64,000 nt of DNA from Adineta vaga (Eukaryota > Animalia > Rotifera): NCBI GenBank assembly GCA_021613535.1, contig CP075493.1, forward strand, positions 13,082,001 to 13,146,000, written 5' to 3'. The notes below the pieces were generated by a model. The model was not told where the DNA came from. It ran no database searches and saw only the letters and a list, made by a program, of their open reading frames with translations. Below are positions 26,802 through 63,086 of the stretch, piece after piece. How positions within the stretch are numbered: the first letter of the stretch is position 1; each line of letters begins with the position of its first letter. The position numbers were made by a program, and so were the translations under genes.

Positions 26802-28593
26802 TTAAAGTGGCGTATAACGGTCACATTTCTTATCAAAATGATGTGCTCCGTTAATAAGTTCAACGCACGAAAAACAATATTGTTTCAAACATCCATTACA
26901 TACAATCCAGTTATCTTCGCCTATTTTAACATTAAGTTTTTCACATGAAGTGTTGGGGCATGGTCTGACTCGTTTGACGACAGCAGCTCCAAGAAATGAT
27001 CGATTATTAATTACGATTTTCGAATCTTGTTCATTTTCGTCTTCATTCAATTGTTCAGATGTTTTTACTGAAAGAGAACAATATTTCGTTTAGTTTTGAA
27101 AATAAAACATTCAAACCTATATCGAACTTCTTAATCAAGTCTTCTTTAATATGTTGAACTGAGTCAGCCGTAGCAGAATGATATAACAGTGAGGTAATCT
27201 GAGGATCTTGAGATCCTTCTGCTCCAGACCAAGTAAAATCGTAATCGCATCGTGAACAATGCATATGTGAACAACCACCATTTTTTTCAATTCTCACATG
27301 ACAATTTGGACATGGCTGAGTATTCAAAGCTTCCAATCGTTCAGCATTCAATATTTTTTCTAATAAAGTATCTTCTTCCAATAAATTAATAACGACTTCA
27401 CGGTATGGTTTTCTCTTGAGATCAATTTTAGCTGCATTTTCTATTTGTTTCTCGATTTTAGCTTGTTCTGCAAGAGCTTTCTCTTGGTGCTTGGCATATT
27501 TCTTCTGATTTTTTTCTTGTTGTTTTCGAAGTTCTTCATCTTTTTCTTCTTGTTGTTTTCGAATTCTTTCACGTTCTTTTTCTTGTTGTAATCTCAGTTG
27601 TACAACTGCATAATCTTTCGGACACATTGCTTGAAAATGAAATAGGTCTTTACATTTTTTACAAAATGTAAAACGACATGAGTCACATATGGCTAAATTA
27701 TCATCCTTATTTCCAAGTAGAACAGCAGATTGACATCTAAATAAACCAAAGCTTTAAACGATTCTTGAGAATGTTTAAGTTTGGAACACTAACCTTGGAC
27801 ACCAAAGAATATCATTCATTAATTCTAAAGCATATTGTAATGTTAATCGTTCATATCTTTCATATAAATGATCATCTTGAAGAATTTGTTTGATTTCATT
27901 TGGAAGTAAAGCTTTTTTACATTGATTTTGTGGACAAAGAACTTGCTCACCAAATCGACCGTTATTAAATGTCATTTGAGTGTAATTATTTAAACATGCT
28001 CGACAATAAAAATGTCCACAACGATATAGACGAATGCAATCACTTCCTGGAATCTCATCTGTACATATTAAACAAGTATGAAGTCGATTTTGAAATTGTT
28101 TTTCTTCTTCTTCTTTATTATAATTTATTAAATGTTGATAAATTTGATCAAGATTCTCAAATAAATAACCATTTAATGCTCGTGGATCATTGATTTGTTC
28201 ATTGATATTAGTGTCAAGTATAAGTTTATTTGTAATTTCATGTTTAATCAATTCAATCCAATCATAAACACAAACTTCACCTTGAGAAAATGAATAATTA
28301 TCAATTTTCTTACAAAGATTTTGTAAAGAAAATTTCGAAAAATAAAAACAAGAAAGAAGAAATGAAGGTGGATAATCACTTGGATATTCATTATGATAAT
28401 GAATAATCAAAGAAAATGGTGGTAAATGATCAATAATAGATGTTCTATTGTTACATTGAAGAACAAATGGTTGCATCAGATCAAAATCAATTAAGATTTC
28501 ATATTGATTATTATCATTAAGAAAACGAAATTTCGTTTCAAATATTGATTGTAATACCAAGATTTCGTCAGCTTGCTTTTCCAAGTTTGTCAT
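26802..28593 (-). CDS. RBR E3 ubiquitin ligase, RNF14-like (RWD, RING1, IBR, Rcat plus an extra Rcat-like domain), 3 exons
   Basis: RWD (QADEILVLQSIF, YPSDYPP), RING1 (CLIC...CGHFYCRAC...CP..C), IBR (WCPR|CQSAV...CDSCRFTFCKKC...H...C), Rcat (CPNC.VRIEKNGGCSHMHC..C). Confidence 0.85.
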
Positions 28594-29069
28594 TGATATT
28601 TGTTTTGTATAATCATGAAAATAAATGAAATATTAAAGAAAAAATGTGCTTTTTTTCTTCAGTCTTATGAAATTACAACGTATTGCACAATAATGTTATT
28701 ACCAAAGTCATAAAAGGAAGAAAGAAAAAAGATATTGACGAAACCGAATAATTCATCAAGTAAATTCTTATGATGGTGTTATATGATCATATAAACGATC
28801 CAAAATAACTATTTAAGATAAAAATAAAACTTGCACTTTTGAAAGGTTCATAATAAAAGTACAAATTGCAAAAATTAATTTTTTTGAGTAGTAGTACTCA
28901 TCTCCAAAATGTATTCTCTCGAGCAATTATATTCTTGTCTTCAGCGATATGATTTGATCAATAATAAGTTAATAACAATTTGATTTCTTTTTATAGATAA
29001 AGTTTAAAAGGAGAATGTATTTTGTAATTGTAAAAGAACGTTTCCAGAGTCTTCAGAGTATTTATCAAC

Positions 29070-30396
29070 ATGTCGTGTATCAACTATATCTCGTTTCATT
29101 TACTAATAATCTCATTTTTATTTCATGGGAATGAAAGTATCTATGAATCTCGAATAGAATTATCGGCAAATAGTTTTCAATTTCAGCCTGGATATTATTC
29201 AGGTCAAATTGTTTCAAAATTTGTTTACGAAAATAATCTCCTTCGATTATATTCAATCTTATGTACTCAAAATATTTTATGTCGAATATTTGATATAAAT
29301 GGTCTTGTGTCAAATGAATGTCGATTATTTCAAAGGTGATATTACTATACATGGAAATATCATCATATCATCTAATAGTAATGCACGAGTTGTTAATTGC
29401 AAAGAATATTTCACTTATTGCACAAAATTGGTCTAGTGAAAATACTTTTGCGATGCCATGGAGTGCAGCTATTCATCCTAATCAAAAAAGTTATATATTA
29501 GTGATAATACGAATCATTATGTCATAAAAATAGTTAATATGCAAGTTATATCTCCATTATCGAGTGTTGTTGCTGGTGTGAAAAGCAGCAGTAGAACGGG
29601 AACCAATAGATTAAATTATCCGGCTGGAATAACAGTTGATAGTAACGACAATATGTGTATTGTTGATTCAAATAATCATCGTATCTAGGGGGCTGCGGGT
29701 CCACATTTTTCTGGACCCGGACCCGGACCCGTACCCGTAAAAAGTAAAAATATTGGACCCGGGTCCAACCCAGACCCGGTGAGGCTCAGACCCGGATTCG
29801 ATCCAGACCCGATGGGATCAGACCCAGACCCGGCCGGGTCTAAACCCGGTTTTTTTTGCACTCTACAGCAGCCTGTGCGTGTAAGTGATGTAAAGCATCG
29901 AAGTCGTAGCTAGTTTTCATTGGTTACCAGGAGAGGAAGATCTGTTCAAAAATCTTGTTGTTCATTCATATTATATCAATAATCATTATCAATCGAGCTG
30001 ACGCTTGAAAAACTAAATTTTTTTTATCAAATTTAAAGAAATCCGCAGGAAGTTGCGGGTCCGTTTTTCTAACTGAGACCCAGACCCGGTCCCAGACCCG
30101 AAGAAAAAGAAATTATTAAACCCGGACCCGGACCCAGACCCGAAAATGAAAAAATTATTAGACCCGGACCCGAGCCCAGACCCGGTCGGGTCCGGGTCCA
30201 CTTGCAGCGCCCTAATCGTATCATATGTTGGCCTCCTAATAGTACTTTTGGAAATGTTATAGGTGGTTTAGGTACATCGAATTTTGATTCGTTTTCACTT
30301 AATAAACCGTATGGATTATTTTTGGATGAAAACAATTCATATATTTATGTGAGTGATACGTATAATCATCGAATTCAACGATTTCAAATTATTTGA
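29070..30396 (+). pseudogene. Secreted PAN/NHL-repeat gene disrupted by frameshifts and a MITE
   Basis: Signal peptide and PAN-like Cys; frameshift near 29335; NHL repeats LNYPAGITVDSNDN..IVDSNNHRI|ICWPPNSTFG...IYVSDTYNHRIQRF rejoin in frame once the insertion is removed. Confidence 0.75.
29686..30214. mobile_element. Non-autonomous hAT-like DNA transposon (MITE), 529 bp
   Basis: 8-bp TSD ATCGTATC at 29678-29685 and 30215-30222; TIR TAGGGGGCTGC versus TAGGGCGCTGC (reverse complement of right end, 10/11); dense subterminal GACCCG/GACCCA hexamers; no coding capacity. Confidence 0.9.
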
Positions 30397-30762
30397 AAAT
30401 GACTTTACTATATTCTCTCATTTGCCTGGATCAAAAATTATTTTAAAAAGAATCAAATAATGTTCTTACAGCTTCAAGATAAAGTATACAAAATTTTTCT
30501 TGCTAACATTGCGATGTTATAACACGAACATTATTTACGTATATTTATAATTTGTTTGTATTTTAATTTTTTTCTATCGAATGAATGGGAAAGAAAAAAA
30601 AAAGATTCCCATCAAATGGGAACAGTTTCAAAAAATATCTCTGTTATTTCATTGACGTCAGATAATATTTAAACGAAAATAACATAATTGAGAAAGAATG
30701 ACGTGAAATGCAAGAAGATAAGACAGATCTAATCCATGTTAGACCTTTAATAGAATGTGGTG

Positions 30763-30769
30763 TATAAAA
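30763..30769 (+). promoter_or_regulatory. Candidate TATA box of the DUF2059-like gene
   Basis: TATAAAA ~60 nt upstream of the ATG and retained in copy 2; weak evidence in AT-rich DNA. Confidence 0.35.
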
Positions 30770-30827
30770 ATCGAATGCATTTTACAAAAGAATATTCATT
30801 TTATTATTCACTTTTAACAAAATCAAA

Positions 30828-31307
30828 ATGTTTATTCGTTTATACTTGATCACGATGGGTATTGCTTTATTTATGGCAACTGATGGCAAACCAATACAAA
30901 ATCAAAGATTGACTCAACGTATCAATACTTTACTTGATTTAATTAAAGTTGAAAAAAGTTTCGAAGAAATTCCAAAAATGATGGCCAAGTATATTCGTTC
31001 AACGGTGACAGAGAAATCTCTAATATTAACGGCGATTGAAGAGTTTTTCTCATTCAAATCATTACGTCCTCAAATTGTTGAGCTCTATCGTGAAGTTTAT
31101 ACACCATCGGAAATAAATGCAATGATCAAATTTTATTCAACACCATTAGGAAAATCAGTGGCTGATAAAGACATAAAACTTGACCAAGGTTATGATCGTA
31201 TTTTAGAAGAACGATTCAAAGAACAGCAGCCACAAATAGAAGCATGGTTCAGTGAACAACGAGATGCGATGGAAACACCAAATATATACGATGAAGATAA
31301 AAATTAA
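30828..31307 (+). CDS. Secreted DUF2059-like protein, copy 1, intronless
   Basis: Signal peptide; IVELYREVYTPSEINAMIKFYSTPLGKSV matches the DUF2059 consensus Y...FT..EL.....FY.SPLG. Confidence 0.85.
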   Translation: MFIRLYLITMGIALFMATDGKPIQNQRLTQRINTLLDLIKVEKSFEEIPKMMAKYIRSTVTEKSLILTAIEEFFSFKSLRPQIVELYREVYTPSEINAMIKFYSTPLGKSVADKDIKLDQGYDRILEERFKEQQPQIEAWFSEQRDAMETPNIYDEDKN

Positions 31308-32119
31308 TACATGGCTCGATTGAAATACTTGAAGCAGATTTTCTCATCTTCCATTTGATCGAATAATCGAGATTTTTCTTTAAAATTTTTGAAATCTTAA
31401 TCCAATAAATTAATCATGAAACATGATAACATCTAAGTTATCTTTTCAAGAAGGAAATTTCATTCTCATTTACATAGACAAAGTTGCATACCTTGAGAAC
31501 GGCAAAGGTAGAATATTGTCAGCTATATTTTATTGACGTCATACAGAAATACAATCAATCTTTACTTAACGACACAATGTCTAATCATTTTTATTTAAAT
31601 TCGTTTTATTAACTCTGGATAGAAAAGGGAAATGATTTACTTGGTATGTACATCTTATCTGTTGTACGCATGTTTACAAAGAAAACGCTAATCTCACGTA
31701 AAATCTATTACATTAACGAACAAATTTTTCTTTTACTAACACAGTTACACATCTGTGATGAGTTTGAAATTGACTTGAACATGAGAAGAAGGAGGAGTAT
31801 TCTCATGATCTATTTCGATAATATTTCTTTCAGCAAAATACATGGATGACACCGAGTTGATATGATAGTTTCTGCTTGATTTTCTCATTCATATTTGTTC
31901 TCAGCTGTTAGAGGATGATACACGTCATCCTCTTTAGTTAGTTACATGACTTTTCTTTCGTTCTTCACATATGTTATATATGCTTTTTTTTCTGTTCTGC
32001 ACATATCATATGTTCCATGTTGTCTGTTCTCTTCACCTATGCTTCTACATTTCATCATCTTTCGTTACCTCGACATATTCAATCATGTTTCATCATCTCG
32101 TTACCTCGATGTATTCACT

Positions 32120-32212
32120 TGATTTCATCATTTAGTTGATTGTTCACTGATATCTTCTCGTGATTTCATCATTTAGTTGATTGTTCACTGATATCTTCTC
32201 GTGATTTCATCA
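32120..32212 (+). repeat. 41-bp tandem duplication present only in duplication copy 1
   Basis: TGATTTCATCATTTAGTTGATTGTTCACTGATATCTTCTCG twice here, once in copy 2. Confidence 0.9.
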
Positions 32213-32664
32213 TCCACTGCATTGTTCTAGTCTTTCCCTCTTTGTGTTATCATCGATCCCTCGATCTCTCGCTCATTGTGTTCACTTGCTATAAATACTG
32301 CGTGATTTTTAGCAATAAACATTCATTCATTCATCTATCAGTCTCATTTGCTCTTCGAGCGACCCGCTCACATCAGCATAAGAGAATGATTCTGATCTTG
32401 AGCATAATACATAGCAAAAAAAGAAGATACACTAAATTGGAAAAGAGAACAAGATAAAAAAAAGATTTTCTCAAACGATAAATACTCAAACATTTCCCTA
32501 GGAATTATACTGAGTGAGGTCATAATCCCATTACCCGCGGTATCCATAAAAAAGCAACCAACTGACCACGTTACCCTATGCGGTATCCACTTCTCATAGT
32601 TCACTATTGCCTCTACAGCAGTAAGAAGCGTACCAACTATACTATGCATATCGTTACCCCAATA

Positions 32665-32895
32665 TCTGACTATATCCTGAAAGCTGAGGAATGTGAGTTG
32701 ACTTGGTGTATCCATCTTGATACTCAGTGTCTGAGTATATCCTGAAAGCAGAGGAATATGAGTTGATTTGGTGTATCCATCTCGATACTCAGTGTCTGAC
32801 TATATCCAAAAAGCTGAGGAATGTGAGTTGATTTGGTGTATCCATCATGGTACCCGGTATCTGACTATACTCTGAAAGTTGAGGAATATGTTTTG
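32665..32895 (+). repeat. 65-bp subterminal tandem repeat (~3.5 copies)
   Basis: Units start at 32665, 32730, 32795 and 32860; core GAGGAATRTGAGTTGAYTTGGTGTATCCATC. Confidence 0.9.
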
Positions 32896-33145
32896 ATTTC
32901 ATTCAAACAACTCTTACGACACTAACTTTTTTCTTTTAGTGACTTTTAATCTGTCCTGATAGTTAGGAGCAACTGTGTGTTGTAAAATGCACTTATGAAT
33001 CAGATAGTAGCGATAAATTTTTTTCCGGGCGTAGTTTCATATGACACTTTAGTGCCTTCGTGTGGGTTGGCGAAGACGAAATGATATTTGTTATTCAGTA
33101 GTCGATTGGTAAAAGATCTGTGTGATTTCAGTGCAGTTTCGGTTA

Positions 33146-33410
33146 CCGAGCACCCTCACTTGTTGCTTTGCCCACCGATCCCGCTTTCCGAGCACCCTCA
33201 CTTGTTGCTTTGCCCACCGATCCCGCTTTCCGAGCACCCTCACTTGTTGCTTTGCCCACCGATCCCGCTTTCCGAGCACCCTCACTTGTTGCTTTGCCCA
33301 CCGATCCCGCTTTCCGAGCACCCTCACTTGTTGCTTTGCCCACCGATCCCGCTTTCCGAGCACCCTCACTTGTTGCTTTGCCCACCGATCCCGCTTTCCG
33401 AGCACCCTCA
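33146..33410 (+). repeat. Perfect 42-bp GC-rich minisatellite (6 copies plus 13 nt)
   Basis: CCGAGCACCCTCACTTGTTGCTTTGCCCACCGATCCCGCTTT repeated without mismatch and without spacers. Confidence 0.95.
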
Positions 33411-33539
33411 AATATTTGCTATTCAGTTAGTTTCTCATGTTTTAGATTAGTTTATATGAATTTTCGGTTAGATGGTAGACATGGAAAAGTTTGATTTATT
33501 GTACAAAAGATATGAGAGAGAAAGGCAGATTGTGAGTAG

Positions 33540-35594
33540 CTATGAGGTTCGATAGTCGTATACAGAAATGTTTTTTTTCTTACAATTCATGAAATTAAAC
33601 AATAAAAGATAAAAGATTTTACTTTTTGGAAAAGAGAAGGATGACAATGCATTTTGGTATTTCTTTAATTTAGAATTTGTTTGTTCACAGACAACAGTGT
33701 TTATTTGATTGATATCGGAATATTTGTATGGATTGGTTTGTGCCTGGCACATTGGTCTTGTATGATTGCAAATGTGAAATTTATCAACCAAGAAAGTCAT
33801 TTTGTTTCTATTAATAGAAGTGCATGGATATACATGGATCGAATAAGTAATATACACTTACAATACATCAGTACGCGTTGTTCGATGTATTTGACCATGT
33901 TCAAGACGATGTCGAAATGTAAGTAGCAAACCACATGCATTATCATATATCAAATACTTAGGTAATGGACTACAGAGAAAGAGTTTTGTGTAGGGCTTAT
34001 ATGAATTCTATATACGCAATTAATACTTACACTGATGATGATACGCAATCGATTGTTGTAAATAAACGATGGAGTACTCGTGTAGGTGATTCAGATCTAT
34101 ATAATTCGTTGAAATTCACAATGATACCACAGTTGTACATAGTATGTACTACCCCATAAGATGTTTGACGAGTATAATAACGATCCGTTCTATTTCAGAA
34201 CAAAAATGATTAATTCATATTTTTTATATTCGTGATTACCTTGAAACATTACAATCCCCAACATTATAATCATCTTTGTCCGTCGAACAACGTACTGATT
34301 GAGTATACTCAAGATCAATGTGTTTGGGGCAATACTTTGTGTTCTTCCAGTAGCCTGGATTTTGTTTATCTGGAATCATTTCAGGACGAAAACCACAACC
34401 CCATTCAATATCACCTAAAATTGGCGTCAGAAAAACTTGATAGTTATTTGAAAAAACTCTCACCTAGCTCTTCCGAATGAATGAGTTCCTGCATAAAACC
34501 GCAAATAAAACGATTAGGTTTTTGGAATCCATCGATAACAATGGCTTTGCAACACTGACTATCACATTCAAATTTTAACATGTGACTTGACCAATATACA
34601 ATAAAATCACGTTCTAATTGAGGCAATTGAGAAGCAAAAAAAAGATTACGTTCATCATGATTGCTTATATGATATGGAATGTCAATTTCTGTACTTGTTG
34701 ACAGGAAGAATTTTAATATTGATGTTGAATAAATTAACCAGATGTTTTCAAATAACCGACGTTCCAAAACTGGTGGATCTTTCATTTTAAGATCATTATC
34801 ACGAGCATGTTGCAATAACACTGACGTTATTGTATCGTTATAAGCCCCACAAAAATTTTCGAAGCCGGCGTACTAAAATAAAGTTCTATAGTAAAAAGAT
34901 TTCGAAAAGATGTCAGGAAGATTTGTTCGAGTTCAGAATGAATATTCATATATGATATACAAAGTTAATTATAATATCTTTAACCTACCATATTGATCAA
35001 GTCTGACACATATCGTAATAGAACATCAATATAAAGAACGCATTTACCACCGAAATAAATATACTTTTGATTGTATAAAGATTGGCGATTAACATAACGT
35101 TTTGAACCTTTGATGTAACTATTTGTATGATATTCAATATGACAGCAACGAGCAATGAAAATAACTCCATTATCGATATGATCCATAAGAAAAACGTTAA
35201 CTTTCTCTTTAAACTGTAATTTCAATGGTAGATGACAATGTAAACACGATAATGTAAATGGTTTTATAGTATGTAATGATGCCATTGTAAGAAAATGATG
35301 ATCTTCGGAGTAATTATTGATGATCTTATCGACGTTGTGTGATGAAAATAGATTTAACGAGGTGTTATCTGATTTTAATAAATTCAAAATAGATTGTATC
35401 ATTATGCCATCATATTTGACACCATACGTCAATTGAACCATATTCGATATATCATCGTATTTCTTTGAAATAAGTTCATCCAATTTACAATCCAGAAAAT
35501 ACATTAGATTTAAATGCTGCAGTGGTATTCGTCAATTTAATGAAATAAGAAACATTTCTTTATCATTGATATTAATATCATTATTAGAATTCAT
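33540..35594 (-). CDS. KDZ-family transposase with CxC5/CxC6-like cysteine clusters, 6 exons, one in-frame TGA at codon 21
   Basis: Spliced reading: CLHC...CCHIEYH; FENFCGAYN; LERRLFENIW; CCKAIVIDGFQK; WGC...YCPKH; YNCGIIVNFNELYRSES; YLIYDNACGL; LVDKFHICNH...C...NP...INTVVCEQTNS. These are the D, D, H and E motifs of KDZ transposases. ATG 35594 is in frame with 35504 across TGA 35532-35534. Confidence 0.85.
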
Positions 35595-36059
35595 CTGAAA
35601 ATAAAAAGAAAAGATAATTAGTGTAACATCTTCAATCCAATGAATAAATGTTGTTGTAACGAACTTGAGATGAGAAGGGCTGTGAGATAATGATAGGCGA
35701 TGTATCTGGTGTCTTTACGTAGCAAGCTGCTTTTCATTTACAAGATGAACGCTTTTATAGAAAACAGTAAACAATGAATATCAGTCAAGTATAGCGGTCA
35801 CGCTAGCATGGACGCGTTACAGGTCAACAGAGAGGCCAAATGATAGGTGATAGTGATATATCCCTTTACACTTGTGACTAGTGGAATTTCTGTGAAAAAA
35901 GCTTGATAAACGAATATTAATTTGTAGCTCTTTTATTGATGAACAATATGCAGTTAACAAATAAAAATCGTTAGACAAAACACACAGATAATCACACAAA
36001 TACAAAACAATCGTCACTTTCTATTGTCAAAACAAATGAGAAAGTAATAGGTAAATCGG

Positions 36060-38545
36060 TCAATGCACTAGTTCGATCTTCGAAAATTGTTAAACATTAT
36101 TCTTTTTCTTTTTTGATTTAGATCGTTCTTCATTATATGTTTTTCCTTTTCCAGTTAATTCACGACGTCGTTTTGGACTAGAAACTTCATGATCAAGGTT
36201 GTGCCCAACATCTGTTGACTCATCGGTAACTTCACATGTCACTAGAAATAAAGATACATCATATTAATGGCTATGGGAAACATGTATGTACTTACTATTC
36301 TCTTTATTACCATCCTGAGTGACAACAGACGCATCTGTTAGTTTACGATATCGTTCTTTTGATGGTTGTACAATGGCATCTTTATTCACAATTATTTTGA
36401 AATCATTGTATGGTTTTTGTTCCAAGATTGACACTCCATAAGGTGATAAATAGGTAGTATTTCTAGTATCAACTAAAAATTAAAATATGATTAATTATAC
36501 GAAATATCGATCGTTTCAGTCGCACTTACTCGTTTTCAAGGTATCGTAATACATGTTTATATCGTAAATTCCAAATTTGGTCAATGTAATAGAAAACTCG
36601 ACTGATGCTGATTTGTTTTGTGGAATGTTTTTCAAATAACATTCATGATACGAAGACTTGTTTGCTAACATTTTGTTTTCTTTGATTAATAATTTATAGT
36701 CGATCAATAATTGACATGCCTTATGGACGTCAACCATATTTGTTTTACATGTTTTATTTAATTTAGTGCTTGATAAAACAATCGAATCGGATAATAAAAT
36801 CTTTTTGCATAATATCTTCATATCTTCTGGAATTAATATATCAGATGATGGTGCACATGTTGTCGAAATTACAGATGAAGAAACTATATGATATATAAAA
36901 GTTATATATATTATGCAATGTTCGTGCGTTTTACTTGTTATATTTTGACATTGAATTGAATCAATTATTTGTTCATCATTTGTATTGGTCGAATCAATTA
37001 CTTGTTCAATAACATCAGATAAACAATTTTCAATTACACTTCGAAGAAGCATATTATCACTGAGTGTGGTTGAGTTATTTTCGATTGAAAATTCTAAACA
37101 CAACTGTAAGATATTAGATGCATAAAATGCTGAATATCTTACCGGCATTATCTTCAATCATTGATGGAATATTGATATCTTGAATGATATCAATCGATTC
37201 ACTTGTTATATTATAATCAATTAAATCAGCAACATCTTGAACAACATCTAAATTGATGCAAATGAAAACAAATAAATCATATACGTTTGAGATGCAATCA
37301 TTACTTGTGCATGATGTTGTTTGTTGAATTTGTGGTTAAATAGAAAATGAATCAGTAGTTGATTCTAAATGGAAAAAAATTGCTTAGTTTCAATAACTTT
37401 TACGTTCTATTTCGAACTATTAATTTAGCGACCCGATGTTTTTCTTAAAAGACAATAAGTGTAGATAAAAAAGTCATCTTCAAAAGCAAAACTTATTCAA
37501 GCTTCGAAATAATTAAGTTCTACATTGATCGAAGTAAAATACTATGGATGAGAAAGACGTATACTTTTCGACATGTATTCTGTAACTTTTATCAAATCTC
37601 GAAAGTAATCGTTGAAGAAGATATCTTACCTAAACTTTTTTTTAGAATAGAAGGACTATGAATTTTTTGTTGTATCTTTTCAATCCATGATCGTTGTGTT
37701 GTTAATATATTGTAACCGGTTTCATTTAATAATGATTTATTATCAACACCATGTTTGTAATAATCAAGATATTTTTGTAAGCTAAGTTGATATTCGGAAT
37801 TTAATTTTTTTCGAAAATCTTCAATTTGTTCGTCAGCTGTTGGCTCAGGTAGAATTTTAATCCAACTCTCAATTAATCGAAAAGAACTTTTGACGAATTT
37901 TCCATGTTTAAGAAAACTTTTTTTTTCCAAATTTGCGAGTAATCGTTTTACATCGATGCGATCACGTTTATGATCTCTGAAAAAAATTCGCAATTTTAAA
38001 TTTAATTGTTAAAAATAATATTCTTACTATGAAAAATGCTTCCATACGTTAAATCGCTGATCGAGAAGCAATTAATCGGATATTGAATAATTTTCAATTC
38101 GTTTAATACGTTTTTTTTTGTTATCAATCGAATCGGTACAAAATAATTGAATTGATTGCGGTAATAACAATTTGTGGAAAAAACTAACAGCAATTTTAGC
38201 AGCCGACAATCCAACTTTCATAGATTGAGATGGTTGTTTGTCCACACTAGATATTTGTACTTCATTTAACTCTTTCAAATCAACACCTTCAGGATAAGAT
38301 AATTTGTTTTCGACTTGATTGCGAATAAGAAAAAGTTCAAAACTATATTTCTGAGCAGAGATTCTGTTTTTCATGAACATAAATGATTGGGATAAAATCT
38401 GGATCTATTTATTGTCCTAGATATGAGATATTTACTCAAATAAAACTCTAAATGTTGCATTTATTGTGAATGTAAAAACATTACGATGCTGAATTTGAAC
38501 TAAATTGTTTTTCTAATAGACAATTAATTTCTGTCTTCGCTTCAT
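36060..38545 (-). CDS. Transposon-internal gene of unknown function with two related helical modules; frameshifted, boundaries uncertain
   Basis: ORFs 38072-38380, 38002-38214, 37592-37993 and 36516-37157 plus small exons with GT-AG signals; basic C-terminal motif SPKRRRE; apparent frameshift at a T-run near 38111-38119. Confidence 0.5.
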
Positions 38546-38684
38546 CATTCAACTCACGAACATATATTCACTCTTTCGCTACTTTTTTGAGTTGATTACG
38601 TATCACTCAACAGCTTATATAAACCACTTATATTTTATACTCCTCTATTATCAATAAGAGAACATACGCATATAATTTTCCTTT

Positions 38685-40230
38685 TTAGATATGAATACTC
38701 CGATGAAATAGATTCAAACAATGAATTAAACTTCGAACAAGGAACTGAAATAAACGTTGACTGTCAAGAAAGAGTATGAAATAAATCTTACATCAATGAT
38801 TAAATAAATATTGCACGTACCTTAACATTTCATTTGGATAAAAATAATTGCCAATATTGAGTTTAATTTCATTCAATGTATCCTTTTTGATACAATGGAA
38901 GTTAATTGATTTAATCGATTCTAATACTTTCAATGTGTCGAACATATTTTGTATGATGACAGTAATACGTTCAATTAAGTCGGCTCCGCGCCGTTCACAT
39001 GACTCTACAATAAAGTGTAATAATAAAAACTTCGATTAAAAAAATGTTTACCGGCACGCTTATTTTCTGGAACATTAAATAATCCATCATATGGCAGACC
39101 ATTGGAACGCATTTTGTACAAAATTGGTCGAAGATAATTACTGGTATCGTGATCATATTCATAAACACGGTTACCGATCAGCATTCGTGTGATAAACAAA
39201 TATTCCAAACATGGTAACTCTTCATTCAACAATGATTCTTCATGGATAAAATTTTTCTTCCAATAACCCAATATAATATTCTTTCATACAATCCTAATAA
39301 AATCAATTTGTAGTAGAGTATATTAGATAGAAATATCGTACCGTTGGTTTTACTTGAATCGTCAAAATATTCCAATAATGAAGACCATCGATCACCAGTA
39401 GTTGGAATTAACATTGTAAGACTTTTATCACGAATATCTTTAGAATATGTCATGGTAAATTTCTGAAGTTTGTATGCACCATTGAACGCCGTAGTTAAGT
39501 ATGGTTGAGATTCCTTTGCCTTCGGTGTGCTTGGTTCGAAAAAAGAAAAATCAGTCAAAGGGTGATCTTCGTCACTTGAAATAAATTTCTAAGATTTACA
39601 ATCAAAATCAAAATCTATTCAATATATTGCAAAAGTTATACTTACGGATGATAATTCGAGTTCAACAAGCGATTTTGCTGGTGTAAGATTTTCAAGACAA
39701 GTTGAAACAAATTTATCATTCGAATCTGTTAATTGAGATCGGAAATATTCTTCGACAAAATCGAACGCTTTTCTGATCGGTTTGATATAACCGGATTTAT
39801 GTGATACTGAATGAAAGAATAAAAACTTTATATTAATTTAAAATTATAAATAGATTTACCCGAGTCCTCTCGAAGAATTCCATAAAGCTTTAAGATGGTA
39901 TAATCGGATTTTTCCTTATCATGCAATTTTGTTTCACAAGACCTTAAATGATACATGAACCTGATAAAGTTATGTCAATAATAGTGTCAAAACTTACCAG
40001 TGCATGAAGCTAATCAAAACACACCAAAACAATGTTAATTCATTAAGCTTTCGGCTTCTATAATTCTTGAATATAGACACCAAGTATGGATGATCTGGAA
40101 AGAATTCTTCCAGCGTATGTGATGATGTTAGTAATTCACAAAAATCAACATTCGACGCATCAATTGCGTTTAATTCCTTGCATCGATCACCTCGATGAGA
40201 CATGAAAATTTTTTTAGAAATTATTGGCCT
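38685..40230 (-). CDS. Transposon-internal DUF3987/YfjI-like P-loop protein, multi-exon, one apparent frameshift (~39255); 5' end unresolved
   Basis: Spliced order LYGILRED(S)..HKSGYIKPIRKAF (degenerate Walker A), LTPAKSLVEL, FISSDE (Walker B), YLTTAFNG, LTMLIPTT, NGLYERILYW (Arg-finger-like), GADLIERITVIIQ parallels the DUF3987 motif order. Stop TAA 38685-38687. Confidence 0.55.
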
Positions 40231-41512
40231 AAAATAAAGATTTTTAATTTAGTAACGTATACGCTTAAACGAAAAAAAATCCAGCAAGCTGTTCGTGAAG
40301 AGACCTTGGGCAAATAAAACTGACAATCAATGCTTTGACTCTTGCAATCATTTATATAATTTCTTCGATGAAATAGAGAATGCAAACGATCCTTTTCCTT
40401 CCATCGTCTACGCAGAAGACGATTATCATATGTATTCCATACTTTTTCCGATGCGCTTCTTCTTGCAAAGTCAATTCCTTCTTTTTCTGCTATTTCTCAA
40501 TTCACACTAGACGCAAATGCAACTGATTGAATGTGATAGACAGGAATGGAGAAACAACGATAGTTTTTCTTCCTTCTTTTTACATAAGACTCAAGATATT
40601 GTCGGAACTGAAACGATGAGATTGATAAGAATCAATTTTTCATGCATTTGATATTGTTTATCTTTCAAAAAATTCAAGCAAATACTTTAAAATGAATTTG
40701 TCTAACTAACTGCGTATTGTGAGAGATCGAAATATTGAATTTTTGATGAATAAACAAGAGAACTAATAGAAACCGCTCAAATTTTAAGTAGATAAACCAG
40801 ATAAAGTAATGTGATGAATAACAAAAGAAAGCTATTTTACAAATAATAACTCAAGATAAAGTTCTGGCATTGAATCACTTACCTTGAACTAATATTATAC
40901 AGTTAGAAGACACAACTGTATAAAAGTACAGTATGCTATATATATAGTGTATTTCCTATGTCATAATAATCATACAATAGTCATTGTCTTATCGGTCAGT
41001 CATTTGTAATCGTATGCATATTAAACTGACGGTCATTATTGTTCTTTGCTAATATGCTATACATTTGCATATCAGTCAACAATCATGACATCCGTCATGC
41101 TAAGATTTCTCCCTGTACAATTCAGATGTCATCGACTATACGATAAATCAGCAGATTTTAAAACATTGACGTAAAATAATAATTGCACATATAGAGATGT
41201 AATGAAAGAATGTTGAGCATTTTCTTTACGCGCTCTGAATATTCCGAACATATGAACAAATATTTTACAATCGATTATTACATTAACGCGACACTACTAT
41301 CATTATCATGCATTATTTTCCATTATAATGTAACGACCAAATACATGAATATAAACATACTTATATTGAGTTTGAATTTGAAAGTATCATGTGTAATTTC
41401 TTGTATAAAAGGTTTCGAATATGAATGTAAACGGAATTGTGAAGTGAAATAGGTAATATTATTGCATTTGAAGAATATATCATTTATTCCCGAGGCAATT
41501 AAATCATTATAC

Positions 41513-41614
41513 AAAATCAACTCATATTCCTCAGGCTTGGGTACATAGTTGGATATTGGGATTGAGGTGGATTGAGATGGATACACCAAATCAACTCATA
41601 TTCCTCAGGCTTGG
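41513..41614 (-). repeat. Right-end subterminal repeats (2 copies), inverted relative to the 65-bp left-end units
   Basis: AAATCAACTCATATTCCTCAGGCTTGGG at ~41514 and ~41588. Confidence 0.85.
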
Positions 41615-41763
41615 GGATGGCTGTATTTTTGCTGGCATATTGAAGTCATTACCCTTGGATCGAATATGGTGATATGAATACCCATGTTCTTCCGTTGATC
41701 AGTTTCAGGGTATTGTGACGTTTGGCTGTCGATACCCAGTGTAATGATATTATGACATCTGTG

Positions 41764-43662
41764 TTCTATCGAATGAATGGGAAAGAAAAAAAAAAGATTC
41801 CCATCAAATGGGAACAGTTTCGAAAAATATCTCTGTTATTTCATTGACGTCAGATAATATTTAAACGAAAATAACATAATTGAGAAAGAATGATGTGAAA
41901 TGCAAGAAGATAAGACAGATCTAATCCATGTCAGACCTTTAATAGAATGTGATGTATAAAAATCGAATGCATTTTACAAAAGAATATTCATTTTATTATT
42001 CACTTTTAACAAAATCAAAATGTTTATTCGTTTATACTTGATCACGATGGGTATTGCTTTATTTATGGCAACTGATGGTAAACCAATACAAAATCAAAGA
42101 TTGACTCAACGTATCAATACTTTACTTGATTTAATTAAAGTTGAAAAAAGTTTCGAAGAAATTCCAAAAATGATGGTCAATTATTTTCCTTCAATGGCGA
42201 CAGAGAAATCTCTAATATTAACGGCGATTGAAAAGTTTTTCTCATTCAAATCATTACGTCCTCAAATTGTTGAGCTCTATCGTGAAGTTTATACACCATC
42301 GGAAATAAATGCAATGATCAAATTTTATTCAACACCATTAGGAAAATCAGTGGCTGATAAAGACATAAAACTTGAGGAAGGTTTTAATCGTATTTTAGAA
42401 AAACGATTCAAAGAACAGCAGCCACAAATAGAAGCATGGTTCAGTGAACAACGAGATTCGATGGAAACACCAAATATATACGATGAAGATAAAAATTAAT
42501 ACATGGCTCGATTGAAATACTTAAAGCAGATTTTCTCCTCTTCCATTTGATCGAATAATCGAGATTTTTCTTTAAAATTATTGAAATCTTAATCCAATAA
42601 ATTAATCATGAAACATGATAACATCTAAGTTATCTTTTCAAGAAGGAAATTTCATTCTCATTTACATAGACAAAGTTGCATACCTTGAGAACGGCAAAGG
42701 TAGAATATTGTCAGCTATATTTTATTGACGTCATACAGAAATACAATCAATCTTTACTTAACGACACAATGTCTAATCATTTTTATTTAAATTCGTTTTA
42801 ATAACTCTGGATAGAAAAGGGAAATGATTTACTTGGTATGTACATCTTATCTGTTGTACGCATGTTTACAAAGAAAACGCTAATCTCACGCAAAATCTAT
42901 TACATTAACGAACAAATTTTTCTTGTACTAACACAGTTACGCACCTGTGACGAGTTTGAAATTGACTTGCACATGAGAAGAAGGAGGAGTATTCTCATGA
43001 TCTGTTTCGATAATATTTCTTTCAGCAAGATACATAGATGACACCGAGTTGATATGATAGTTTCTGCTTGATTTTCTCATTCATATTTGTTCTCAGCTGT
43101 TAGAGGATGATACACGTCATCCTCTTTAGTTAGTTACATGACTTTTCTTTCGTTCTTCACATATGTTATATATGCTTTTTTTTCTCTGTTCTGCACATAT
43201 CATATGTTCCATGTTGTCTGTTCTCTTCACCTATGCTTCTACATTTCATCATCTTTCGTTACCTCGACATATTCAATCATGTTTCATCATCTCGTTACCT
43301 CGATGTATTCACTTGATTTCATCATTTAGTTGATTGTTCACTGATATCTTCTCGTGATTTCATCATCCACTGCATTGTTCTAGTCTTTCCCTCTTTGTGT
43401 TATCATCGATCCCTCGATCTCTCGCTCATTGTGTTCACTTGCTATAAATACTGCGTGATTTTTAGCAATAAACATTCATTCATTCATCTATCAGTCTCAT
43501 TTGCTCTTCGAGCGACCCGCTCACATCAGCATAAGAGAATGATTCTGATCTTGAGCATAATACATAGCAAAAAAAGAAGACACAGTAAATTGGAAAAGAG
43601 AATAAGATAAAAAAAAGATTTTCTCAAACGATAAATACTCAAACATTTCCCTCGGAATTATA
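41764..43662 (+). repeat. Direct segmental duplication, copy 2
   Basis: Starts TTCTATCGAATGAATGGG and ends GGAATTATA, as copy 1 does. Confidence 0.95.
42020..42499 (+). CDS. Secreted DUF2059-like protein, copy 2
   Basis: 159 aa, 146/159 identical to copy 1. Confidence 0.85.
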   Translation: MFIRLYLITMGIALFMATDGKPIQNQRLTQRINTLLDLIKVEKSFEEIPKMMVNYFPSMATEKSLILTAIEKFFSFKSLRPQIVELYREVYTPSEINAMIKFYSTPLGKSVADKDIKLEEGFNRILEKRFKEQQPQIEAWFSEQRDSMETPNIYDEDKN

Positions 43663-43690
43663 TTCATTTCCCTAACTGAACATATTGATA

Positions 43691-44017
43691 ATGATGAAGT
43701 CAACAAGAGTTTCTTTCTTACTTTTCTGTTTGATTATTGCACAAACTGTTGCACAAAATATACGATCAGTGCAAATGTCTATCATGAACGGATGAAAATT
43801 TGGGTGTGCTAATACTACTTGTTTGCCATTCGTTTATCTTACTACACCAAACATTCGAGATTGTCAAGTGGCTTGTTTATATCAAAGTTATTGTAAAGCA
43901 GTTAGTTTTCATCTATCCAGTTTGAATTGTGTATTGTTCAATGATATCTCAAATGCAAATAGAAATATGTTATTGGGCAACGCTTACTTTCGAAATTTTT
44001 CTCTCTTGATAAAGTGA
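43691..44017 (+). pseudogene. Truncated PAN/Apple-domain gene, paralog of 12832-14045 exon 1
   Basis: MMKSTRVSFLLFCLIIAQTVAQNIRSVQMSIMNG*KFGCANTTCLPF aligns with QDTRSFRMSVENGWKLQCANTTCLPF; TGA at 43793-43795 replaces Trp; no downstream exons seen. Confidence 0.75.
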
Positions 44018-44130
44018 GTCATTCATTAAATGTGAGAGAAAGAAATACCATGGACATCATTGTTATACTTTGTTCTTTTACTGTGTCGCGCATACAGTCG
44101 TTCTCTTTTCATATGAGTGAAGCACAAGTT

Positions 44131-45906
44131 ATGACGAAATTCGATTTATTACCAAACGAAATACTTCTTCAATGCTTTGAATATCTCAATGCACCTGATA
44201 TATTCTTTTGTTTTAATAATTTAAATTGTCGTTTGAATCAACTTATTCGACATATTCCACTCTATCTTAATTTTGAATATTTCGACAAATTAATTTTCAA
44301 TCAATTTTATGAAGATATGCTTACAAATTCAGAAATTGAACGACAAATTGTTTTCTTAGAATTATCTAATAGAAAAATATGGTATCAAATACGTACATTT
44401 TTATCATTATTCCCTCTCGATTGTTTTTCTTATCTTCGAACATTAATCTTAGATAAAATCGATGATACTGATGGAAAAGAAATTTTACGTATATTCAATG
44501 TATCCGATATACCTCATCATTATTTTACGAATTGGTTGGAGGAAACGAATACAATACTAACTACATTACCGATGGATACAATTCAAACATTATCTATATC
44601 AACAATACCTTCTAATTTATCAATCATTCCTCAATTGACTTCTGTTATCAATATAACTATGTCGCATTGTTCTCTCAAGGAATTCTGTCGTTTTTTCATT
44701 CATGTGCCCAAGTTAAAATTTCTCAAAATCAATGTAGTCTTCAACGATAATGATGATTCAATTATTTTAGAACAATTTATGATCAATAAATCTATTAGAT
44801 ATTTACAAAAATTAATAATTAATAGTTTCGAAGGTGAATTCGATGATCTGGAAATTGTACTAAAACATACACCAAACTTGAAGAGTTTAACCATATCAGC
44901 TAGAGATAACATAGATATAATTGATGCTAATCGGTGGCAACAGTTAATTCCATCGTTCGATGTTTTCAAGTTTAAATTTATTATCACATATACAAATGAA
45001 AATGATTATATATTTGAAAAATTTCAAGAATTTCAGACTGAATTTTGGCACACACAACATTATTGGAATATTGTATGGGAATTAAATCAACATCAAGCAT
45101 CGATATATTCAGTACCATATGCTTTTAATAAGTATACATTACCACAGATTCCTCAAAGACAATTAAATTTATCGATTCAAAATTCCAATCTGCACAAGAA
45201 AGTCACGGATTTGACAATATATTTGGAGCAAATCATTGAAAACGATGAATATCAGTTTCCAAATGTCAAATCAATAAAATTCGAAAATTATAGTATGGAT
45301 CAAAATGATGAACCTTCATATTTAGAAGTCAAACATATTGTATATGTGAAAAAGATGATTAATATTGAGAATTTAATTCATTTAGACCTTTCATCTTTAT
45401 ATGGAATTAAATCATCACTTGTTTTATTGCAAATATTCAAAGAAACACCACATTTAATATCGGTAAAATTTCATATAGATATATTGGTAACATTGTTTGA
45501 TAACCGTGACTTGAATAAATATTTCAACAAAATGATCAGAAAGTTGAGTATCATTGGTATACATAATCTGCGATCAATCAAACACAATGAGTTAAAGTGT
45601 ATTTGTCGAGCATTTTCGAATATCGAACAATTTCGGTGTGATGTTGTTGATACGCTTAGTTTATTTAAAATATTAAAAGCATTATCAAAATTATCAAATA
45701 TGGAACTATGTTATTGTACATCATTCTCTCCTCGAAATTGGACTTCTTGGCTGGAAATATATGGAGATAAACTCAATCGATACTCATTTTCCATTAGTTT
45801 TTCCAGTAATTATGACTATAATACTGAAATCGATTATCATGGTTCGTACAATGATACTTCCAACGATGATAATTCGAATATCTTTTTCGATGAAGATGAC
45901 AGTTAA
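44131..45906 (+). CDS. F-box domain protein with LRR-like repeats, intronless
   Basis: FDLLPNEILLQCFEYL...F.NLNCRLNQLI (F-box); PKLKFLKI and PNLKSLTI repeats. Start chosen at MTKF inside ORF 44014-45906. Confidence 0.8.
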   Translation: MTKFDLLPNEILLQCFEYLNAPDIFFCFNNLNCRLNQLIRHIPLYLNFEYFDKLIFNQFYEDMLTNSEIERQIVFLELSNRKIWYQIRTFLSLFPLDCFSYLRTLILDKIDDTDGKEILRIFNVSDIPHHYFTNWLEETNTILTTLPMDTIQTLSISTIPSNLSIIPQLTSVINITMSHCSLKEFCRFFIHVPKLKFLKINVVFNDNDDSIILEQFMINKSIRYLQKLIINSFEGEFDDLEIVLKHTPNLKSLTISARDNIDIIDANRWQQLIPSFDVFKFKFIITYTNENDYIFEKFQEFQTEFWHTQHYWNIVWELNQHQASIYSVPYAFNKYTLPQIPQRQLNLSIQNSNLHKKVTDLTIYLEQIIENDEYQFPNVKSIKFENYSMDQNDEPSYLEVKHIVYVKKMINIENLIHLDLSSLYGIKSSLVLLQIFKETPHLISVKFHIDILVTLFDNRDLNKYFNKMIRKLSIIGIHNLRSIKHNELKCICRAFSNIEQFRCDVVDTLSLFKILKALSKLSNMELCYCTSFSPRNWTSWLEIYGDKLNRYSFSISFSSNYDYNTEIDYHGSYNDTSNDDNSNIFFDEDDS

Positions 45907-52001: not shown

Positions 52002-53078
52002 TTATTGTTTAGAAATGGTGAGAAAACAATGCACATAATCCATAGCATGATCTCCAGGTGCATTGATCACATCATTCTCCATGGCTTGGTAGAAGCGATC
52101 AATAATGATCTGACGTTCAGCTGAAGTGCGCTTCATATCAAGTGCATTCAGAAAAGTACTTTCGGACCACGAACGTAAAGTTGGTATGTAGGCTTTGGCA
52201 AAAGTTATTGCATCACCATGTTCTCGAAATTGTGCGGCATATGGACATTTTGTCACATGTGTGGTGACATTCTGAAGAACAAGACCTGCACGTCGTATAG
52301 ATGAATTCTCGTCTTGAAATGGTGCTGTAAATTCGTTCACGGTTCTATAGTATTGCTGAAATGTGCCGTTATGATACTCAGATTCAGTGATTTCACCATT
52401 GTTCTTGAGCTTTCGCCAATGTTTAGCAAACCAATCAAACATATTGATCGGACCACCCGTAGCGCCAAGATAATGACCTTGTTCATCTATACAAAAATTA
52501 GCAAATACAAGTACGCCGCCAGCAACGAGTTCTCGAGCTCGTCCTAAGAGAATCGTTTCCCAATCTATAACAGCTTGATGATGAAATAGTTCATATTCTT
52601 CTTTACGAGCACCTGTTGCGTGTACGTGATCAGCAATGAATGATGGTCTTGCGCTAAGCCAGTGCATGGCCGTTGCAGAGAATCCAAACGAGAGAGTGTT
52701 ATCCGGAAATATTTGTCGATAAAATGTAGTTCCACTAGCAAATGTATACACATTTTGTTCACAAGTCAAAGGTCTAGCATGATCGTCATGATGAAGACGT
52801 TGAAATAATGCTGAAAAATCATTCTGCGGTAAATCTGTGTAAGTAATAGTGATAGGCTTCGTCATATTTCCTGCACGAATTGTTTTGATTATAAGTCGCA
52901 TCAGATCGAGTGAAGTGCCACCGTCAGCTGCACCGAAATCAGCAATTGTAAAAGGAGTATCGCTTCGAGATAGATTCTCGTCGAAAAAGCATCAATTACA
53001 AGATGACCTGCTATCGATTACGGCTTTTGCACCAACCGTATTTGTACTATAATAGCCTGCACCACGCATTGCGATCAT
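52002..53078 (-). pseudogene. SAM-dependent carboxyl methyltransferase (SABATH / Methyltransf_7), bacterial-like; in-frame TGA near the 5' end
   Basis: MRGAGYYS, TIADFGAADGGTS, DLPQNDFSALF, GTTFYRQIFP, FSATAMHWLS. ATG 53078 is in frame with 52901 but TGA lies at 52992-52994. Intronless. Confidence 0.8.
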
Positions 53079-54053: not shown

Positions 54054-55750
54054 CTAACGTTTCTTGCTTGATGTTGATGGAACAGATGCTACGTTTCCTG
54101 CTATTTTTATTGCTCCATTGTCAGCTTGTTTGGCTCTTCCGCTTGTAGTAGCAATAGAAATCTAAAAATAGAACAGATGCACATTAAAAAATCTTTAATT
54201 AATACATTCATTGGTCTTTTCTCTCTTACGGATTGCCTCGCAGGTTGGTTTTCGACGGACGATTGATTTTGTATATCTTCATCCAAGATTTCTCGAATCG
54301 CTGCCGCAACGTTTGAATGTTGCGATTTCTTCGGCCAGAAACGGTCCACTAATTTTTTTAATCCATCTAACAGGCTTTCTGTGCTGTTGAGACCACGTTT
54401 TGCCTCATCCCTTTGTTGCTCTGCTTCTTGTCGACATCGAGCTTGCTCATTTGCCTCTTCTACTTGACGGTCATATTGTTCATATAATTCTTTTTCCCGC
54501 GCATACCAGTCTTTCTGTTCTCGATTGTGCTTGGCTTCCAATTCACGCCCAGCTTCTTTTTCCTGCTCCAGGTTCTCTTCAACCAGATGGCGAGCCTTCA
54601 TTTCTTGGTGCAGACGGTTTTCAGCCAGAAGGTGAAGTTGCTGTTCCCGTAGCAACTTCTGTTCAGCCAGATGGCGATCTTGATTTTTCCGCTGCAGAGT
54701 TTCTTCGATCTGATGATGTTTTGTTTCTTCAGCTTTCAGAAGCGCTTTGAGTTTTTCTTGTTGATGCTTATCTGTCCTAGATTTTTCTTGCAAAGCTGCA
54801 ATAGTACGTGTATGCGCTTCTACAGTTGACTGTATGTCTTTCAATGCAGTAATTTTCTCTTTTAGTTCATCCCCTGTCTTGTCAAGTAAACTTTGCTTTT
54901 GTTGAAGATCTCTTTGAGCCTGATGAAGTTCGTTTTCCTTTAACGCTCCGTGCTCACGAGCACGTCTTAGCTTACTCATTCCCGTTGCATCGAGTGGAAA
55001 TGGTACGATATCACTGGTAAACATTTCAATGAGCATCGTACGATACTCACTGATCGTAACAAATTGATCGATCAGACTATCATTAGCCGTGTTATAATCA
55101 TCGCGATTAAGTGCACCAGAAAAGAAGATTCCTAACTTGAAGAAGTTGACGATTTCTTTGAAATGTTTATCTTCTGAAAGTTCCGATTTCAGTTTGGCTC
55201 GCTCATCTTCGCTTTTCGATTCGCAGTGGGTAACGATTAAACAAGAATTATTCGATATAGAGTTACCCAAAATGTCGAGCAATAATCGGAGTATTTGAAT
55301 ATCTTGGTCATTAATACCGCATGTAATTGCGATACAGAAGCAAATGACATGACACTTCGTAAATTCACGATTGATACACTCATCGAGGATGTTCAGAATA
55401 TATTCATCGTTACGAGCTTCAAGTTTATCGGTACCACGTTCAACAAAACCCGGCGTATCGATGATGTTGAGCATGACATTCTTCCCGGTAACATGATACG
55501 ACTCGACTATAGGAGATTCTGTACCCGCGAAAAGACTGAAGTCCTCTGGAATAGTCGTTGGATTAACAAGCAACGATTTGATAGTCGACTTCCCAGTACG
55601 TGTTCGTCCCAGGAGTATTATATTCTTCATCGTCGCTTGTGACACTCCATATTCACCATTCTGCTCGTAGTCTTTCTGGATGTCGTCCATCAGCTTTTCT
55701 CTTTTTTCTGCTAGATTGTTGTTCTTACGTACTCGGTCCCGAATCGACAT
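54054..55750 (-). CDS. AIG1/GIMAP-like P-loop GTPase with long coiled-coil tail
   Basis: G1 LLGRTRTGKST, G3 IIDTPG, G4-like VTHCE; E/K/Q-rich heptads. Probable intron ~54162-54229 gives a C-terminus ...SSKKR* at 54054. Confidence 0.85.
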
Positions 55751-62664: not shown

Positions 62665-63086
62665 ATTCTATGTGATGCATCCAACTAAACGAAGTATTTA
62701 TACGCTGATGAATTGTTTTTACAATATGATTTGATATTAACATCGATTTGAATATATCAATCGATGAAATATATGCATGAATAATAACAGAAAACTAGAT
62801 GCTTACCTATATATTAATCATGATCAAAGAGTGTGTGCTCATAGAAGAAAACAAATTTACATGTCTATAACATCTATAAAATCTCATTGTTTATTAGTAA
62901 ATATTTAACATAGTCCAAACAGGAATGGCAGAAAATATGGAGATATATTCTCTATTTTTACGATTATATTAATCTGTATGTAGAAATCATTTTTTTTGCA
63001 AAAAAAAACAACCCAAGTTGAAGATAAGACCTTTTATACATCACGAAGCATGTGTACATCTATCAGTATATACTCTCGATCATTTT

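What the first reader, a model, noticed from the sequence alone, without database searches (positions are those of the whole stretch)
30572..43662. Transposon is bracketed by a 1.9-kb direct duplication instead of a short TSD
Seen: both duplication breakpoints fall within ~10 nt of the TIR cores (32509 and 41764), and no short TSD is visible. Inference: the element caused the host gene duplication, for example by alternative or replicative transposition, or by unequal exchange between two insertions 1.9 kb apart. The copies differ by scattered SNPs and a 41-bp indel, so they are not identical.
Basis: partly seen in the sequence, partly recalled or inferred. Interest (0 to 1): 0.78.

Follow-up and report, generated by a model that had tools for sequence, protein, structure and literature searches.

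The report
Transposon-bounded gene duplication in a rotifer
In a bdelloid rotifer, a 9-kb jumping gene sits exactly between two copies of a 1.9-kb host stretch that carries a bacterial-type gene, likely the scar of one irregular jump of a kind known from flies and maize; sequencing depth suggests the animal holds four copies of the stretch, more than the assembly shows.

Summary
Confirmed and real. Host DNA 30572-32511 is repeated at 41764-43664 (36 substitutions, two indels) around a 9,252-bp KDZ-type DNA transposon of Adineta vaga. Both breakpoints lie within 0-2 bases of the element's ends, defined by other family copies; there is no short TSD. The repeat holds a DUF2059 gene and a solo LTR. 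Contigs of 4 public runs argue against two alleles stitched in tandem: depth gives about four copies of the repeat and two of the element. The window's second copy is the odd one out (about 3:1), so its differences may be allelic. The true layout may be one plain homolog plus a three-copy array, not two copies on each homolog; only long reads decide. Best mechanism (inferred, 0.55): hybrid-end (alternative) transposition, known for P and Ac elements, then unequal exchange or conversion. This scan found the same anatomy before on other DNA with other transposons. I found no report for KDZ elements. Side leads: 13 of 14 coding differences change amino acids, in two clusters; the element's second gene resembles DUF3987 helicases by one method only.

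The parts
30572..32511 (+). Duplicated host block, copy D1 (1940 bp)
   Evidence: a contig starts at exactly 30572 in 4 of 4 runs
30828..31307 (+). Single-ORF DUF2059 gene, copy 1 (159 aa); family described in Pfam as bacterial
   Evidence: Pfam PF09832 E=4.6e-12; model pLDDT 90.6, top fold matches PA0856/DUF2059 at E 1e-3 to 2e-3
31906..32372 (+). Solo LTR in D1 (467 bp, TG...CA, 5-bp TSD TCAGC, TATA and AATAAA motifs)
   Evidence: sequence; other genomic copies leave loose ends at 31906 and 32372
32512..41763 (-). KDZ-type DNA transposon, 9252 bp (left end uncertain by 1 base: 32511 or 32512)
   Evidence: termini from other family copies; transposase homology
32512..32544 (+). Left imperfect TIR (24 of 33 bases match the right TIR)
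41731..41763 (-). Right imperfect TIR
32665..32899 (+). Subterminal repeat, period 65, 3.6 copies; related inverted copies at 41508-41615
33146..33410 (+). Internal array, period 42, 6.3 identical copies, downstream of the transposase; a relative (L001) has two 41-bp arrays at the same place
33540..35594 (-). Spliced CxC5-KDZ transposase gene; in-frame stop at 35534-35532 where homologs have a residue
   Evidence: Pfam KDZ E=5.5e-4 on the last exon, below the cut-off; homolog P0007 passes the KDZ cut-off (30 vs 26.6 bits), CxC5 E=0.002; tblastn
36090..40496 (-). Second spliced gene (annotated product P0167, 786 aa), DUF3987-like by language-model features only; two frame changes at A-runs near 39255 and 38120 relative to homolog P0168
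   Evidence: no Pfam or PHROG support
41764..43664 (+). Duplicated host block, copy D2 (1901 bp); the minority sequence type among about four copies
42020..42499 (+). DUF2059 gene, copy 2 (159 aa; 13 amino-acid and 1 silent difference from copy 1)
43098..43525 (+). Solo LTR in D2 (428 bp; no substitution against the D1 copy, two indels)
43665..43674 (+). 10-bp word at the very start of the right flank that repeats a word 21 bases upstream (9 bp exact in D2, 10 in D1): possible repair scar or older host repeat
   Evidence: background 0.17-0.26% of window positions; noticed post hoc

Best explanation
A KDZ-type transposon sits exactly between two direct copies of a 1.94-kb host block, likely because in one irregular jump its transposase joined the left and right ends to two sites 1.94 kb apart on sister copies of one chromosome (hybrid-element, or alternative, transposition). 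Shown: the repeat, both breakpoints at the termini, no short TSD, about four copies of the block and two of the element. Inferred: the two 7-8 bp target sites are hidden inside the ends of the block, so no TSD is seen. Inferred: a later unequal exchange or gene conversion added a second element-plus-block unit. I favour (about 55:40) one homolog with a single block and one with block-element-block-element-block, the window being a collapsed mosaic whose second copy is the other allele, over two copies on each homolog.
For: Breakpoints 0-2 bases from termini defined by other copies. In haploid units from the left flank: block 2.94-3.34 (4 runs) and its tail 3.40-3.53 (3 runs), against at most 1.6 for two alleles, 2.6 for three copies and 3.1-3.6 for four; element 1.80-1.89; a MITE in the flank 0.69-0.98 as haploid check; junction contigs 1.29-1.86. 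No joint flank-to-element skipping the block in either lay (table 5). The contig path differs from D1 at 4, 10, 8 sites but from D2 at 27, 24, 29 in X1, X2, X5; 9 of 14 SNP clusters show the D1 letter in all three runs, 1.75 expected at 2:2. So three copies are alike, which points to a same-chromosome template. The two element copies differ by about 0.5%, nearby flanks by about 1-3%. Precedent: PMC3744419 and PMC2775673 (passages).
Against: No sequence feature separates this from recombination between two nearby insertions or from one insertion with far-apart cuts. A sister-target reaction should leave a repair scar at one outer junction. Contigs across both outer junctions are ungapped in all runs listed (table 8); the only candidate scar is a 9-10 bp repeat, and it would be shared by a homolog that in the 1+3 layout never held the element. 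The reciprocal deletion is not seen. Lower divergence of the element is weak per run (p 0.01-0.06), and a flank 1 kb away is lower still (0.1%). No substitution in the LTR (0 of 426 vs 35 of 1473, p=3e-4) shows later conversion has blurred the history.
Confidence: 0.55

Rival explanations
1. Two ordinary insertions of the element 1.94 kb apart (for example a local hop to the sister chromatid) recombined unequally, leaving one element between two copies of the block.
For: Gives the same junctions with clean outer borders and no TSD. Interhomolog recombination is documented in A. vaga (PMC8494291 passages).
Against: Needs two insertions plus an exchange in a family with only about two near-identical copies. 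Neither parental join (flank-element, element-flank) is seen. An exchange between homologs would give one block of each allele, which does not by itself explain three alike copies.
Confidence: 0.2
2. One insertion in which the two target strands were cut about 1.94 kb apart, or one end inserted and host or element-encoded synthesis copied the block: a giant target-site duplication, perhaps helped by the element's helicase-like gene.
For: Explains clean outer junctions and alike copies in one step. Second gene scores 0.96 to a rotifer DUF3987 cluster; DUF3987 is described as an MCM-like replicative helicase (PMC4889955 passages). Long target duplications are known for Dualen and R9 retroelements (PMC9977147 passage).
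Against: Described KDZ elements make 7-8 bp TSDs (PMC12730594, PMC11343200 passages). Helicase call rests on one method; Pfam, PHROGs and folding gave nothing usable. No second insertion could be inspected end to end.
Confidence: 0.15
3. Assembly artefact only: two alleles of a single-copy block printed in tandem around a heterozygous insertion.
For: D1-D2 divergence outside the LTR (2.4%) is near the species' mean heterozygosity of 1.7%, and D2 may indeed be the other allele.
Against: Predicts at most 1.6 haploid units over the block; observed 2.9-3.5 in 4 of 4 runs. Contigs hold flank-block, block-element, element-block and block-flank joins, and no element-flank join.
Confidence: 0.03
4. 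Host repair (break and template switch) made the duplication, and the element's ends lie at the breakpoints without transposase action.
For: Bdelloids repair many breaks; a 9-10 bp repeat at the right outer junction could be a templated insertion.
Against: Both breakpoints fall within 2 bases of the termini; about 2.5e-7 if each were free within 5 kb (rough). No microhomology at the element-block joins.
Confidence: 0.05

Closest known systems
P-element hybrid element insertion (Gray, Tanaka & Sved 1996; Preston, Sved & Engels 1996). Not held; seen as reference titles and as described in PMC2775673 and PMC3744419 passages
   Same: Ends from two copies on sister or homologous chromosomes act together and give flanking duplications and deletions with breakpoints at the termini.
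   Different: Other superfamily and host; here inferred from one genome, no reciprocal deletion seen, and copies have since been reshuffled.
Maize Ac/Ds reversed-ends transposition, tandem direct duplications (PMC3744419: introduction and passages read)
   Same: Direct duplication with a DNA transposon exactly at the junction; one B73 example is about 1.26 kb and 96% identical.
   Different: There each repeat begins with an element and one element keeps an 8-bp TSD. Here no element stands at either outer border and no TSD remains.
KDZ transposons: Zisupton, Dileera, Kyakuja; Cryptococcus KDZ1-3 (PMC12730594, PMC11343200 passages)
   Same: KDZ transposase behind a CxC domain, about 9 kb, extra ORFs, terminal repeats.
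   Different: Those have 7-8 bp TSDs; this copy has none. The second gene here is DUF3987-like by one method.
Penelope-mediated copying of a bacterial-origin NRPS gene in A. vaga (PMC3846280 passages)
   Same: A mobile element multiplies a foreign-type host gene in the same species.
   Different: Retroelement acting in trans to a new site with an 8-bp TSD; here a local duplication flanking a DNA transposon.

Membership tests
KDZ DNA transposon | KDZ transposase domain | tested here: met
   Window last exon E=5.5e-4, below cut-off; close homolog P0007 passes the cut-off and aligns along the window's exons, 66% and 55% in the first two. The annotated window protein P0001 alone has no Pfam hit.
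KDZ DNA transposon | N-terminal CxC zinc domain | tested here: inconclusive
   CxC5 at E 3e-4 to 0.03 in 4 of 7 proteins, all below the cut-off.
KDZ DNA transposon | Defined termini shared by dispersed copies | tested here: met
   Loose ends at 32511/32512 and 41763; TIRs 24 of 33 alike.
KDZ DNA transposon | 7-8 bp TSD | tested here: not met
   None at this copy: this is the finding. Not testable at other copies, whose two flanks could not be paired.
Kyakuja, Dileera or Zisupton subgroup | Phylogenetic placement of the transposase | not tested
   No tree built.
Hybrid-element / alternative transposition product | Breakpoints at the element termini | tested here: met
   0-2 bases.
Hybrid-element / alternative transposition product | Reciprocal deletion, or matching target sites in the progenitor | not testable with these tools
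   No progenitor; no flank-element join in 4 and 3 runs.
Hybrid-element / alternative transposition product | Repair footprint at the donor site | tested here: inconclusive
   9-10 bp repeat at the D2-flank junction, but no length difference between alleles there.
Ac-type reversed-ends duplication | An element at the start of each repeat, first one with TSD | tested here: not met
   No terminus-like sequence at the outer borders or elsewhere in the window.
DUF3987 (MCM-like) helicase | Profile or fold match | tested here: inconclusive
   Atlas features 0.96; 0 of 4 proteins hit PF13148; model pLDDT 31.9, not searched.

The most novel reading that the evidence does not exclude
This rotifer KDZ lineage, with a helicase-like second gene, inserts by a replication-coupled route that copies kilobases of flank, and the element-plus-gene unit then amplifies in tandem. 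It has raised a bacterial-type gene to four copies that are diversifying at two protein patches: a route by which an asexual animal multiplies and varies foreign genes.
Probability: 0.1. Interest if true: 0.75.

Novelty: new member of a known kind. Interest (0 to 1): 0.36.

Why it matters
It extends transposon-bounded tandem duplication to the KDZ group (no report found) and shows a concrete way a foreign-type gene gains copies in an asexual animal. It also flags a locus where a collapsed assembly likely misstates copy number or phase. As a mechanism it is known from flies and maize, and this scan has met the anatomy several times.

Tried and rejected
No whole genome was held, so other insertions could not be examined end to end. 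All runs laid were contigs, so no spanning reads; no RNA holder was listed, which says nothing on expression. TSD search of 2-12 bp at three left-end positions: negative. One other copy's right flank is compatible with an 8-bp TSD when set beside a two-contig consensus at the left end, but that consensus mixes two contigs; I do not count it. Hybrid insertion into the homolog would explain the printed window alone (D2 the other allele from its first SNP) but not the other two alike copies; rejected as sole cause. Excess of amino-acid changes in the DUF2059 copies is not significant against neutrality (1 silent of 14, p=0.20; 1 of 17 with three further variants from contigs, p=0.12); only their clustering is (p=3e-4). 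The DUF2059 model gave no coordinates to test whether the two clusters touch. Folding of the second gene failed. Taxonomy of the nearest DUF2059 relatives was mostly unnamed: of the 10 looked up (of 150 listed), 1 was named to species, Adineta steineri; horizontal origin therefore rests on the Pfam description, not on a tree. Search for Kyakuja + CxC5 + rotifer found 0 papers.
Full report
Observation. Self-comparison of the window finds one long direct repeat, 30572-32509 against 41764-43662, 96.0% identical, 35 mismatches and 2 gaps. Alignment shows the gaps as 2 bp and 41 bp; the 41 bp is one unit of a short tandem repeat. Homology continues to 32511/43664 with one more mismatch, so the blocks are 1940 and 1901 bp and the period is 11,192 bp. 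No TSD of 2-12 bp joins the two sides of the intervening element.

Host and contents. Transposase homologs are all bdelloid rotifer proteins (10 of 10 hits), the best 100% identical and named Adineta vaga. The block holds a 159-aa single-ORF DUF2059 gene, whose model matches the DUF2059 protein PA0856 at E about 1e-3, and a solo LTR at 31906-32372 with a 5-bp TSD (its ends match loose ends). Both are in both copies. Foreign origin of the gene rests on the Pfam description; I built no tree.

The element. Between the blocks lie 9,252 bp with imperfect TIRs (24 of 33), subterminal and internal repeat arrays, and two spliced genes on the minus strand. One is a CxC5-KDZ transposase: the window's last exon hits KDZ below the cut-off, and homolog P0007 passes it. 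It has an in-frame stop at 35534-35532 where homologs read through. The other (P0167) resembles a rotifer DUF3987 cluster by language-model features (0.96) but not by Pfam or PHROGs; folding failed. It has two frame changes at A-runs against an A. ricciae homolog, real or assembly errors. Described KDZ elements make 7-8 bp TSDs (PMC12730594 and PMC11343200, passages).

Termini. Contigs from other genomic copies begin to match at 32511 or 32512 (table 7, shown rows only: 24 of 73) and one in X1 stops at exactly 41763 (24 of 67 shown). The breakpoints are thus 0-2 bases from independently defined ends.

Is it real? I laid contigs of 4 of the 24 listed runs on 28500-33100 and 3 of them on 39300-45200. 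A contig starts exactly at the block's first base in every run, the mark of two different predecessors. No join skips the block. Taking half the depth of the left-flank contig as one copy, the block reads 2.94-3.34, its tail 3.40-3.53, the element 1.80-1.89, the right flank 1.62-1.76, a MITE in the flank 0.69-0.98. Given the real SNP positions, two alleles allow at most 1.6, three copies 2.6, four copies 3.1-3.6. Contig depth is a flat mean and the tool warns against reading it as copy number; I used single contigs and the MITE as a check. The plain mis-assembly reading is not supported.

How many copies, where? Four blocks, two elements and each join about twice (1.3-1.9) fit two layouts: two blocks on each homolog, or one block on one homolog and three blocks with two elements on the other. 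The contig path follows D1: 4, 10 and 8 other letters against D1 but 27, 24 and 29 against D2 in X1, X2, X5; 9 of 14 SNP clusters show the D1 letter in all three runs, 1.75 expected at 2:2. So D2 is a minority type. At 31172-31195 four local types occur across the window and the runs. The element copies differ by about 0.5%, adjacent flanks by about 1-3%, D1 and D2 by 2.4% outside the LTR; mean heterozygosity of the species is 1.7% (PMC8494291 passages). The 1+3 layout explains this with allelic divergence for D2 and a younger array for the rest, provided the assembly collapsed the array; a published haploid reference of the species was purged and polished in a way that could do so, though I did not establish the window's source. 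The 2+2 layout needs conversions, one starting within about 70 bases of the block's start. I put them at about 55:40. Against over-reading: heterozygosity is patchy (0.1% 1 kb to the left), per-run tests are weak (p 0.01-0.06), and the LTR has no substitution between D1 and D2 (p=3e-4), so conversion has acted here in any case.

Mechanism. Breakpoints at both termini point to the transposase (inferred). Three alike copies point to a template on the same chromosome (inferred). The known route is hybrid-element or alternative transposition, in which ends from two copies act together (PMC2775673, PMC3744419; passages and introduction; the 1996 P-element papers were not held). The two short target sites would lie inside the ends of the block, so no TSD shows. 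Recombination between two nearby insertions, or one insertion with far-apart cuts, would give the same junctions, and nothing here excludes them. A 9-10 bp repeat begins exactly at the right outer junction (background 0.2-0.3%); it may be a repair scar, but it was noticed after the fact and the alleles show no length difference there.

The duplicated gene. D1 and D2 differ by 13 amino-acid and 1 silent change; three more variants in contigs also change residues. The ratio is not significant (p 0.12-0.20), the clustering at residues 53-60 and 119-128 is (p=3e-4). This is a lead for diversifying selection, not a result.

Comparison and novelty. Transposon-bounded tandem duplications are known for P and hAT elements. 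Searches for KDZ or Zisupton with such terms or with this species (listings only, 15-20 rows shown where more matched) showed no report, and a bdelloid TE survey has no occurrence of either name in its main text (PMC7943196; supplements not read and may list them). This scan has noted the same anatomy in other genomes and another KDZ element with a helicase-like gene in this genome; these are unchecked notes. Verdict: a real, new member of a known kind, interest 0.36.

Noticed in passing
window 29686-30214: GC-rich MITE with TIRs and an 8-bp TSD (ATCGTATC, hAT-like) inside an NHL-repeat gene; haploid depth in 4 of 4 runs, so heterozygous.
   Followed up: partly
window 31906-32372 and 43098-43525: Solo LTR with no substitution between copies while the block around it differs by 2.4%; about 5-5.5 haploid units of depth, so about two more near-identical copies elsewhere.
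   Followed up: partly
window 30828-31307 and 42020-42499: DUF2059 copies differ almost only by amino-acid changes, in two clusters; four local types at codons 115-123.
   Followed up: partly
window 36090-40496: Second gene of the element, DUF3987-like by one method; conserved in Adineta and Rotaria.
   Followed up: partly
window 43691-44020: PAN/apple-like gene starting 27 bases right of the block has an in-frame stop where its paralog near 12.9 kb reads TGG; an 82-base skip at 43886-43969 at about haploid depth in 3 of 3 runs.
   Followed up: no
window 41721-41763 and 39627: Other contigs share only the last 43 bases of the right end, or leave the element at 39627: further, shorter or diverged relatives exist in the genome.
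   Followed up: no
window 7052-9575 and 54107-57901: Two pairs of diverged inverted gene duplicates (69-71% identical); the second pair are AIG1-type GTPases.
   Followed up: no
window 52002-52991: Single-ORF SAM-dependent carboxyl methyltransferase (Methyltransf_7) at higher GC (0.41), a possible further foreign gene.
   Followed up: no
window 60550-62667: TPR-repeat protein with a weak ADP-ribosyltransferase domain hit.
   Followed up: no
L001 2780-3090: A related transposase in a metagenome contig is followed by two 41-bp tandem arrays, like the 42-bp array here.
   Followed up: partly
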